Shown here piece by piece: positions 60,001 to 62,325 of a stretch of 64,000 bases of DNA (position 1 is the first letter of the stretch; each line of letters starts with the position of its first letter). Made by a program: the position numbers. The DNA comes from Escherichia coli (GTDB lineage: Bacteria > Pseudomonadota > Gammaproteobacteria > Enterobacterales > Enterobacteriaceae): the NCBI RefSeq assembly GCF_048403405.1, contig NZ_CP183129.1; one strand, given 5' to 3'.

Positions 60001-62325
60001 CATCATCTACAGCTGGTCGGCATTCACATGCACATTGGTTCTGGCGTTGATTATGCCCATCTGGAACAGGTATGTGGTGCTATGGTGCGTCAGGTCCTCG
60101 AATTCGGTCAGGATTTACAGGCTATTTCTGCGGGCGGTGGGCTTTCTATTCCTTATCAACAGGGTGAAGAGGCGGTTGATACCGAACATTATTATGGTCT
60201 GTGGAATGCCGCGCGTGAGCAAATCGCCCGCCATTTGGGCCATCCTGTGAAACTGGAAATTGAACCGGGTCGCTTTCTGGTAGCGCAGGCTGGCGTATTA
60301 ATTACTCAAGTGCGGAGCGTCAAACAAATGGGTAGCCGCCACTTTGTGCTGGTTGATGCCGGGTTCAACGATCTGATGCGCCCGGCAATGTACGGTAGTT
60401 ACCACCATATCAGTGCCCTGGCAGCTGATGGTCGTTCTCTGGAACACGCACCAACGGTGGAAACCGTCGTCGCCGGGCCATTATGTGAATCGGGCGATGT
60501 CTTTACCCAGCAGGAAGGGGGAAATGTTGAAACCCGCGCCTTGCCGGAAGTGAAGGCAGGGGATTATCTGGTACTGCATGATACGGGGGCATATGGCGCG
60601 TCAATGTCATCCAACTACAATAGCCGTCCGCTGTTACCAGAAGTTCTGTTTGATAATGGTCAGGCGCGGTTGATTCGCCGTCGCCAGACCATCGAAGAAT
60701 TACTGGCGCTGGAATTGCTTTAACTGCGGTTAGTCGCTGGTTGCATGATGACTTGCCTCCAGCGACGGAGTTGACACTGAATGGCGACGTACCAGCGTCG
60801 GACTAAAGACATTAGTGATTTCCGGGAGAGGGCGATTATCCGCCAGCGCCAAAGCCAGTTCAGCAGCCTGCGTCGCCATCGTCACGATTGGGTAACGCAC
60901 GGTGGTCAGGCGCGGACGCACATAGCGTGACACCAGCACATCATCAAAGCCAATTAACGAAATCTCACCCGGTACATCAATACCATTATCATTGAGAACG
61001 CCCATCGCACCCGCCGCCATTGAATCGTTATAACAGGCTACCGCAGTGAAATTCCTTCCTCGTCCCAAAAGCTCGGTCATTGCCTGTTCGCCGCCGCTTT
61101 CGTCTGGTTCGCCAAATGTCACCAGCCGATCATTGGCCGGAATACCACTTTCAGCAAGGGCATCGTAATACCCTTGCAGACGATCTTCGGCGTCAGAAAT
61201 AGAGTGGTTAGAGCACAGATAACCAATGCGGGTATGACCTTGCTGAATTAAATGACGCGTTGCCAGCCAGGCACCGTAACGATCGTCCAGAGCAATACAA
61301 CGATTTTCAAAGCCAGGCAGGATACGGTTGATCAGCACCATACCGGGCATTTGTTTCATTAATGAGGCTAAATCGGCATCCGGGATCATTTTGGCATGGA
61401 CAACCAGCGCAGCACAGCGATGGCGGATCAGTTGCTCAATGGCCTGACGCTCTTTTTGTTCGTTGTGGTAACCGTTGCCAATCAATAAAAAATTACCAGT
61501 GTGATAAGCCACCTGTTCGACCGCTTTCACCATTGCACCGAAAAACGGATCGGAAACATCACCAACGACCAGACCGACCGTTTCAGTGGTCTGCTGCGCC
61601 AGCGCACGGGCGTTGGCGTTCGGGTGATAGCTAAGAGACTCCATTGCACTATGCACAGCAAGCCGTGAAGCTTCGCTGGCTTTGGGTGAATTATTAATGA
61701 CGCGGGAAACGGTGGCGACTGAAACGCCTGCCAGTCGGGCTACATCCTTTATGGTCGCCATGAAAATACCTTAGTGGGTAAACGCTTACATTCTTTCAGT
61801 GTTACGGAAAACGCCCGTTGGTTCAAGGGGGGGCGTGTTTTCATCCTGGGAATGTGAGCCAAACGCAAATAAGTAAGACAAAAAAAGAGATTGCAAACCT
61901 TTGGTTACACTTTGCGAAACGCTGTTGCGATTGACCGCTGGTGGCGTTTGGCTTCAGGTTGCTAAAGTGGTGATCCCAGAGGTATTGATAGGTGAAGTCA
62001 ACTTCGGGTTGAGCACATGAATTACACCAGCCTGCGCAGATGCGCAGGTTTTTTTTTGCCGGTCATCAATCTGTAACAGTAACCGACAATTTACACACCT
62101 CGTTGCATTTCCCTTCATTCCTTTGCGTTTTCTCACTGGCGAAGAGTCGTCGTGCAGACCACAATCAAGATCCCAGAGGTATTGATTGGTGAGATTATTC
62201 GGTACGCTCTTCGTACCCTGTCTCTTGCACCAACCTGCGCGGATGCGCAGGTTTTTTTTCGCACCTAATTTACTGTCGCTCGCGTTCTTTATCTCGTGTA
62301 ATCTCCCTCCATTCGCTTTTACTGA

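What the first reader, a model, noticed from the sequence alone, without database searches (positions are those of the whole stretch)
61975..62259. Tandem paralogous sRNAs (OmrB/OmrA) with conserved ends and divergent centres
Two roughly 85-nt elements about 115 bp apart share the 5' CCCAGAGGTATTGAT seed region and the 3' terminator hairpin but differ internally. This matches the known OmrA/OmrB pair that represses outer-membrane protein mRNAs; it is a known feature, recorded so the region is not mistaken for coding sequence (the ORF track has a 78-aa ORF across it).
Basis: partly seen in the sequence, partly recalled or inferred. Interest (0 to 1): 0.25.

Follow-up and report, generated by a model that had tools for sequence, protein, structure and literature searches.

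The report
Known OmrB/OmrA small RNA pair
These are the two well-studied E. coli regulatory RNAs OmrB and OmrA, identical to the K-12 reference genes and in their usual place between galR and aas, so the finding is correct but ordinary.

Summary
The observation and the interpretation are both correct. Window 61975-62056 (+) and 62172-62259 (+) match Rfam RF00079 (OmrA-B) at 86.1 and 96.6 bits, against a gathering score of 40. They are identical, 82/82 and 88/88 bases, to the annotated omrB (b4445) and omrA (b4444) of E. coli K-12 MG1655. They lie 115 bp apart on the same strand, in the 585-bp gap between galR (- strand) and aas (+ strand). That gap is found in 5423 of 5426 complete E. coli genomes.

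The two copies share their first 15 nt exactly (20 of the first 21) and 32 of their last 35 nt. Their central hairpins differ. Across 61 distinct Enterobacterales homologues the terminator stem is always paired and has three compensatory positions. The galR/aas neighbourhood and the order of the two copies are conserved.

The 5' ends are predicted to pair with the ompT and ompR translation-initiation regions at the published sites. The 78-aa ORF (62186-62422) is a mechanical artefact: it has no Pfam match and neither its length, frame nor start codon is conserved.

Published work shows that the RNAs are activated by OmpR, need Hfq, and repress mRNAs by base pairing. Novelty: already known. Interest is very low.

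The parts
60730..61761 (-). galR, the upstream flanking gene, transcribed away from the sRNAs
   Evidence: 343-aa ORF. Annotated as galR in the 100%-identical strain and in K-12.
61905..61933 (+). Conserved boxes upstream of omrB: TTACACTTTGC at -70..-60 and CTGTTGCGATTG at -53..-42. These are candidate activator (OmpR) sites.
   Evidence: Near-invariant columns in the 11-species alignment of -110..+5. The literature reports two conserved boxes in the omrB promoter and direct activation by OmpR-P on -114..+50 templates (PMC13425233, PMC5175337). Assigning these boxes to OmpR is inference.
61938..61968 (+). omrB core promoter: weak -35-like CTGGTG (61938-61943) and -10 TAAAGT (61963-61968, -12..-7)
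   Evidence: Read from the sequence relative to the +1 at 61975. CTGG and the -10 positions are conserved. The consensus sigma-70 scan finds no promoter here, as expected for an activator-dependent promoter.
61975..62056 (+). omrB small RNA gene, 82 nt. The T-run is 9 T here against 8 in K-12, so the 3' end may fall at 62056 or 62057.
   Evidence: RF00079, 86.1 bits, E 2.3e-15. 82/82 identical to K-12 b4445.
61975..61995 (+). OmrB 5' target-pairing (seed) region
   Evidence: 20/21 identical to OmrA. Unpaired in the Rfam consensus. Predicted to pair with the ompT and ompR initiation regions. Compensatory-mutation proof is in PMC2588501.
62029..62057 (+). OmrB intrinsic terminator hairpin and U-tail (the Hfq-binding 3' module typical of this class of sRNA)
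   Evidence: Terminator scan. 100% paired with 3 compensatory positions across 61 homologues. Hfq binding comes from the literature, not from a test here.
62058..62171 (+). omrA promoter, which fills the whole 115-bp spacer apart from the extra T at 62057. Conserved boxes: TGTAACA 62072-62078, GTTGCATTT 62102-62110, TTTGCGTTTT 62122-62131, CTGG 62136-62139. The -10 is CACAAT at 62160-62165, with C at -12 and -13.
   Evidence: 12-species alignment. OmpR-P activation needs sequence upstream of -60 (PMC5175337). A C at -12/-13 is the reported sigma-S determinant of omrA (PMC12692685).
62172..62259 (+). omrA small RNA gene, 88 nt
   Evidence: RF00079, 96.6 bits, E 6.4e-18. 88/88 identical to K-12 b4444.
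62172..62192 (+). OmrA 5' target-pairing (seed) region
   Evidence: PMC2588501.
62201..62217 (+). OmrA-specific central hairpin GGTACGCTCTTCGTACC
   Evidence: MFE fold and Rfam consensus. A GTAC...GTAC hairpin marks the aas-proximal copy in 15 adjacent pairs from other species.
62232..62259 (+). OmrA intrinsic terminator hairpin and 8-U tail
62186..62422 (+). 78-aa mechanical ORF. Not a gene.
   Evidence: One search lists it. No Pfam match. Length, frame and start codon are not conserved. It crosses the OmrA terminator and overlaps aas out of frame.
62347..64000 (+). aas, the downstream flanking gene. It runs off the end of the window.
   Evidence: ATG at 62347 preceded by GGGAG. Annotated as aas in the identical strain.

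Best explanation
The region holds the two paralogous, independently transcribed small regulatory RNA genes omrB (61975-62056) and omrA (62172-62259) of Escherichia coli.

Each has its own activator-dependent promoter. The OmpR response regulator, in its phosphorylated form, switches both on. omrA also depends on sigma-S, and RstA in multicopy activates only omrB. Each gene ends at its own intrinsic terminator.

The RNAs bind Hfq. Their nearly identical, single-stranded 5' ends pair imperfectly with target mRNAs at or near the ribosome-binding site. Targets include ompT, cirA, fecA, fepA, ompR-envZ, csgD, flhDC, flgM and dgcM. Pairing blocks translation and, for some targets, triggers decay by RNase E. 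Because ompR is itself a target, the pair forms a negative feedback loop on its own activator. The divergent centres give each RNA individual targets, for example btuB for OmrA.

Shown here: the identity of the genes, their anatomy, structure covariation, synteny, promoter conservation, and predicted pairing to ompT and ompR. Taken from experiments in the literature: OmpR, sigma-S and RstA control, Hfq and RNase E dependence, and in vivo pairing.
For: - Both copies match Rfam RF00079 over the full model, at 96.6 and 86.1 bits against a gathering score of 40 (repeated).
- They are identical to the annotated K-12 omrA (88/88) and omrB (82/82). The whole intergenic region differs from K-12 by 3 substitutions and one extra T.
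- The locus lies between galR and aas, as in K-12, and is present in 5423 of 5426 complete E. coli genomes.
- A seed scan of representative genomes gave 70 Omr-like elements in 48 Enterobacterales loci. 42 of these loci have galR and/or aas beside the elements. There are 20 adjacent pairs, starting 188-275 bp apart (197 bp in the window). In the 15 pairs where the OmrA-type hairpin is recognisable, it is the aas-proximal copy.
- Across 61 distinct homologues the terminator helix is paired in 100% of cells, with compensatory changes at 3 of 8 pairs. Overall pairing is 95.7% and falls to 18-53% when the 3' partners are slid by 1-3 columns.
- Both RNAs fold better than shuffled sequence, z = -2.9 and -2.7.
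- Duplex predictions: OmrA nt 1-33 with ompT -18..+21, dG -24.4 (2/500 shuffles as good); OmrB with ompT, -23.3 (5/500); ompR -22.1 and -23.8 (16/500 and 14/500). All are at the published sites (PMC2588501).
- Promoter boxes are conserved, the -35 is weak, and the omrA -10 CACAAT has C at -12/-13. This agrees with PMC5175337, PMC12692685 and PMC13425233.
Against: Nothing substantive.

- The consensus sigma-70 scan finds no promoter. That is expected for activator-dependent promoters, but it means the promoters are inferred from conservation and the literature rather than detected.
- The cirA duplex is not better than shuffled controls over the full 33 nt (z about -0.7), although it uses the published short site, OmrA/B nt 2-10 with the cirA ribosome-binding region.
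- Expression in this particular strain was not and cannot be tested here.
Confidence: 0.98

Rival explanations
1. The region is protein-coding: the 78-aa ORF at 62186-62422, or the shorter ORFs over the copies, encodes a small protein.
For: The ORF exists and starts with TTG. A GAGG sits 7 nt upstream of that TTG, inside the Omr seed (sequence).
Against: - No Pfam family matches, even at E up to 1.
- In 20 other genomes the equivalent reading frame runs 0-94 aa. The start codon is TCG or TAG in 3 of them, and the frame switches with indels in the RNA centre. Another E. coli strain and E. albertii both stop at 47 aa.
- The ORF reads through a covarying terminator hairpin and then overlaps aas out of frame.
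- On the 88-nt sRNA it would have no stop codon.
Confidence: 0.01
2. The two elements are not trans-acting RNAs but cis-acting leader or attenuator structures, or simply terminators, that control read-through into aas.
For: Both elements point towards aas and end 88-290 bp upstream of its ATG. Weak sub-threshold Rfam Leu_leader matches lie over both (27.8 and 23.2 bits).
Against: - The Leu_leader scores are about half the gathering score of 50 and rest on the terminator plus T-run. The OmrA-B model scores 86-97 bits on the same bases.
- The most conserved part is the single-stranded 5' 21 nt, which is complementary to unlinked mRNAs. A leader would not show that.
- Trans action is shown by compensatory mutations in vivo (PMC2588501).
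- Each element has its own conserved promoter (PMC5175337).
Confidence: 0.01

Closest known systems
OmrA and OmrB of E. coli K-12 (b4444, b4445; Rfam RF00079). From my own knowledge, originally called RygA/RygB or SraE.
   Same: Sequence is identical (88/88 and 82/82). The order, strand, 115-bp spacer, galR/aas flanks and promoter boxes are the same.
   Different: Only outside the mature RNAs: 3 substitutions in the intergenic region (61831, 61846, and 62135 at -37 of omrA) and a 9-T rather than 8-T run after the omrB terminator.
Single or chimeric omr genes of other Enterobacterales (Serratia, Dickeya, Pectobacterium, Erwinia, Pantoea, Tatumella)
   Same: Same 5' seed, the same GGUG...CACC helix and the same terminator design. 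Usually the same aas-side location. PMC13425233 reports that a single copy carries the omrB-type promoter.
   Different: The window has the full two-gene Enterobacteriaceae arrangement with distinct A-type and B-type centres. In Pantoea the two copies are about 2 kb apart rather than about 200 bp.
Other tandem sibling sRNA pairs, such as PrrF1/PrrF2 of Pseudomonas aeruginosa (from my own knowledge, not tested here)
   Same: Adjacent paralogous Hfq-dependent sRNAs with shared seed regions and overlapping regulons.
   Different: Unrelated in sequence, with a different regulator (Fur rather than OmpR) and different targets. This is an analogy, not family membership.

Membership tests
OmrA-B sRNA family (Rfam RF00079) | Scores at or above the curated gathering score of the covariance model, over the full model length | tested here: met
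   96.6 and 86.1 bits against a gathering score of 40, model positions 1-87 of 87, for both copies.
OmrA-B sRNA family (Rfam RF00079) | Sequence identity to the experimentally characterised E. coli K-12 genes | tested here: met
   88/88 identical to omrA (b4444) and 82/82 to omrB (b4445).
OmrA-B sRNA family (Rfam RF00079) | [quoted passage not shown] | tested here: met
   galR 60730-61761 (-), omrB, omrA, then aas from 62347 (+). The same layout is seen in the Enterobacterales loci.
OmrA-B sRNA family (Rfam RF00079) | Conserved single-stranded 5' end (CCCAGAGGUAUUGAU...) shared by both paralogues, with divergent centres | tested here: met
   20/21 identical between the copies. Unpaired in the Rfam consensus structure. 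Columns 17-20 and the terminator are invariant or covary in 61 homologues, while the centre cannot be aligned. Invariance of the first 15 nt and of GGTG was imposed by the search pattern, so it is not independent evidence.
OmrA-B sRNA family (Rfam RF00079) | Rho-independent terminator hairpin with a U-tail at the 3' end | tested here: met
   Both are detected by the terminator scan. 100% of cells are paired and 3 of 8 pairs have compensatory changes.
OmrA-B sRNA family (Rfam RF00079) | The 5' end is complementary to the translation-initiation regions of known targets (ompT, cirA, ompR) | tested here: met
   For ompT and ompR the duplexes fall at the published positions and beat 484-498 of 500 shuffled controls. 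For cirA the published site is used, but the energy is no better than shuffles, so that target is inconclusive (PMC2588501).
OmrA-B sRNA family (Rfam RF00079) | Transcription activated by EnvZ-OmpR; omrA also depends on sigma-S | not testable with these tools
   The sequence only shows features consistent with this: conserved upstream boxes, a weak -35, and C at -12/-13 in the omrA -10. The experiments are in PMC5175337 and are summarised in PMC12692685.
OmrA-B sRNA family (Rfam RF00079) | [quoted passage not shown] | not testable with these tools
   Shown experimentally for the identical K-12 RNAs (PMC2588501). No computation here addresses it, beyond the presence of the terminator and U-tail.

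The most novel reading that the evidence does not exclude
The only openings left for novelty are small.

(a) The strain-specific differences from K-12 could shift the relative expression of the two RNAs in this lineage. These are the A at 62135, which is -37 of omrA and abuts the conserved CTGG box, and the 9-T instead of 8-T tail on omrB.

(b) The GAGG-N7-TTG arrangement inside OmrA could allow some translation on read-through transcripts.

Neither has any positive evidence. Both A and G occur at the -37 position in other species, and the ORF is not conserved.
Probability: 0.02. Interest if true: 0.2.

Novelty: already known. Interest (0 to 1): 0.04.

Why it matters
It matters only for annotation. 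These 285 bp are two non-coding RNA genes with their own promoters, not coding sequence and not empty intergenic DNA. NCBI's automatic annotation of the 100%-identical RefSeq genome leaves them unannotated, so a naive ORF track could mislabel the region. Biologically, the pair links envelope and osmotic sensing (EnvZ-OmpR), and sigma-S for OmrA, to control of outer-membrane proteins, iron receptors, curli and biofilm, motility and its own activator. All of this is already established for the identical K-12 genes.

Tried and rejected
- **Sigma-70 consensus scan of 61700-62450:** 0 promoter-like sites. This does not count against the genes, because the promoters depend on an activator and have a weak -35. 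I located them from the known +1 positions and from phylogenetic footprinting instead.
- **Genome-wide scan for the exact 15-mer:**
  - About half of the 142 seed hits were chance matches in unrelated phyla, mostly inside coding sequence.
  - Counts of one-copy versus two-copy species are therefore not a census.
  - Copies with a single seed mismatch are missed, so loci that look single-copy may not be.
- **Full-length MAFFT alignment of all homologues:** it cannot align the central hairpins of the A-type, B-type and other types. I therefore tested covariation only on the end-anchored helices. The GGUG/CACC helix never varies, so it says nothing either way, and GGTG was part of my selection filter.
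- **cirA duplex over 33 nt:** no better than shuffled controls. I kept it only as consistent with the published short pairing.
- **Sub-threshold Leu_leader matches:** rejected as an artefact of the terminator plus T-run.
- **Pfam scan of the 78-aa ORF:** no match.
- **Large protein-homology searches, structure prediction and metagenome scans:** not used, because nothing about this finding called for them.

Full report
**Observation.**
The window between 61975 and 62259 contains two same-strand elements of 82 nt (61975-62056) and 88 nt (62172-62259), separated by 115 bp. The 15-mer CCCAGAGGTATTGAT starts each element and occurs nowhere else in the 64-kb window on either strand. The copies are identical at 20 of their first 21 nt and 32 of their last 35 nt. 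They match in 59 of 88 aligned columns overall, and the mismatches and a 6-nt indel cluster in the centre. Each ends in a hairpin of 9 pairs (6 G-C pairs, 4-nt loop) followed by a T-run. Both fold more stably than dinucleotide shuffles, z = -2.9 and -2.7.

**Identity.**
A scan of the whole window against Rfam 15 gives only three matches above gathering score. Two of them are RF00079 (OmrA-B), at 62172-62259 (96.6 bits, E 6.4e-18) and 61975-62056 (86.1 bits, E 2.3e-15). Both cover the full model, and the gathering score is 40. A permissive local rescan adds only sub-threshold Leu_leader matches on the same bases (27.8 and 23.2 bits against a gathering score of 50), which I attribute to the terminator and T-run.

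The K-12 MG1655 record annotates omrA (b4444) and omrB (b4445) between aas and galR. The window's second copy is 88/88 identical to omrA and the first is 82/82 identical to omrB. The whole 585-bp intergenic region differs from K-12 at three substitutions (61831, 61846, 62135) and by one extra T in the run after the omrB terminator. The flanks are galR (60730-61761, - strand) and aas (ATG at 62347, + strand, running off the window). The intergenic region is found in 5423 of 5426 complete E. coli genomes, at 99% identity or more in 4971 of them.

**Comparative evidence.**
About half of the 142 seed occurrences are chance hits in unrelated phyla. The rest, 70 elements in 48 loci, are all from Enterobacterales and continue with NGGTG, a variable centre, CACC, a GC-rich hairpin and a T-run.
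- galR and/or aas homologues flank the elements in 42 of the 48 loci.
- Twenty loci carry an adjacent pair whose copies start 188-275 bp apart, compared with 197 bp in the window.
- In the 15 pairs where the OmrA-type GTAC...GTAC hairpin is recognisable, it is always the aas-proximal copy, as in the window.
- On an alignment of 61 distinct sequences, the terminator helix is paired in 100% of cells, with double-sided changes at three of its eight pairs: G-C to A-U in 14 sequences, C-G to U-A in 5, and U-A to C-G in 3.
- Overall pairing is 95.7% and falls to 18-53% when the 3' partners are slid by 1-3 columns.
- The GGUG/CACC helix never varies, so it is uninformative, and GGTG was part of my selection filter.

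This pattern of conserved ends, variable centre and compensatory stem changes is that of a structured RNA, not of a protein.

**The 78-aa ORF.**
The ORF is real as a mechanical feature (62186-62422, TTG start). However, it begins inside OmrA, reads through the OmrA terminator and then overlaps aas out of frame.
- It has no Pfam match, even at E up to 1.
- In 20 other genomes the equivalent frame runs from 0 to 94 aa.
- The start codon is TCG or TAG in three of them.
- The frame changes with indels in the RNA centre.
- Another E. coli strain and E. albertii both stop at 47 aa.

It is not a gene.

**Promoters.**
The consensus sigma-70 scan finds nothing in 61700-62450. Working back from the known +1 positions gives these elements:
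- **omrB:** a -10 of TAAAGT (61963-61968) and a poor -35 of CTGGTG.
- **omrA:** a -10 of CACAAT (62160-62165), with C at -12 and -13, and CTGG at -36..-33.

Alignments of -110..+5 from 11-12 species show near-invariant boxes:
- **Upstream of omrB:** TTACACTTTGC at -70..-60 and CTGTTGCGATTG at -53..-42.
- **Upstream of omrA:** TGTAACA at -100..-94, GTTGCATTT at -70..-62 and TTTGCGTTTT at -50..-41.

The two sets of boxes differ. This matches published work:
- OmpR-P directly activates both promoters on -114..+50 templates, and an omrA promoter truncated at -60 is not activated (PMC5175337).
- omrA, but not omrB, depends on sigma-S through a C in its -10 region (summarised in PMC12692685).
- The two promoters carry different conserved boxes, and RstA in multicopy activates only omrB (PMC13425233).

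Assigning particular boxes to OmpR is my inference.

**Mechanism.**
Published experiments on the identical K-12 RNAs show three things. Regulation depends on Hfq and RNase E. The conserved 5' end pairs with ompT, cirA and ompR near their translation starts, as proved by compensatory mutations. Repression of ompR closes a negative feedback loop (PMC2588501, PMC5175337).

I tested the pairing by computation, using the window's RNAs and the K-12 target regions fetched:
- OmrA nt 1-33 pairs with ompT -18..+21 at -24.4 kcal/mol (2 of 500 shuffled seeds as good).
- OmrB pairs with ompT at -23.3 kcal/mol (5 of 500).
- Both pair through CCCAGAGG with CCUUUGGG just upstream of the ompR start, at -22.1 and -23.8 kcal/mol (16 and 14 of 500).
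- The cirA duplex uses the published UACCUCAUGG site, but it is no better than shuffles over 33 nt.

**Verdict.**
The finding is correct in both observation and interpretation, and it is a textbook feature. Its only practical value is for annotation. The PGAP-annotated RefSeq genome that is 100% identical over this region lists no feature between galR and aas. Novelty: already known. Interest is very low.

Noticed in passing
window 25800-46100 (island), beside the tRNA at 23371-23441: An ETT2-type type III secretion island lies next to a tRNA-Gly gene (Rfam tRNA hit, annotated tRNA-Gly).

It has long, apparently intact ORFs: SctC-like 567 aa, SctV-like 686 aa, SctN-like 439 aa (gene names).

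At least 80% of this 20.3-kb stretch is present in only 932 of 5426 complete E. coli genomes, and part of it in 3735.
   Followed up: partly
window 1-50001 compared with NZ_CP128875.1 (locus L004): Strain TUM14771 is collinear with the window at 99.86% identity but with 39 gap openings. Many of its secretion-system genes are annotated as frameshifted, while the window has long open frames there. This suggests indel errors in that assembly rather than real pseudogenes. I did not check it gene by gene.
   Followed up: partly
window 61831, 61846, 62057, 62135: These are the differences from K-12 in the galR-aas intergenic region: G/T, C/G, one extra T after the omrB terminator (9 T against 8), and A/G at -37 of omrA beside the conserved CTGG box. 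Both A and G occur at that position in other species.
   Followed up: partly
locus L001 (NZ_CP128875.1), equivalent to window 61762-62346: The PGAP RefSeq annotation of a genome identical over this region lists no feature for omrA or omrB. Only the curated K-12 record annotates them.
   Followed up: yes
L032 2747-2822 and 4789-4879; L061 647-722 and 2680-2770 (Pantoea): In Pantoea the two Omr-like copies are about 2 kb apart rather than about 200 bp. The downstream copy has a long GC-rich centre and a CCCACGC/GCGTGGG terminator. I did not look at what lies between the copies.
   Followed up: no
summary: One of the 5427 matches to the galR-omrBA-aas intergenic region lies on a plasmid record, and 3 of the 5426 genomes have no match. 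Neither was examined.
   Followed up: no
window 23635-25287 and the gap before 25878: Between the tRNA-Gly and the secretion island there is a 550-aa ORF. By position it corresponds to the glycoside hydrolase family 15 gene of strain TUM14771, and that record also lists a small GhoT/OrtT-family toxin gene next to it. I did not confirm that the toxin ORF is present in the window.
   Followed up: no
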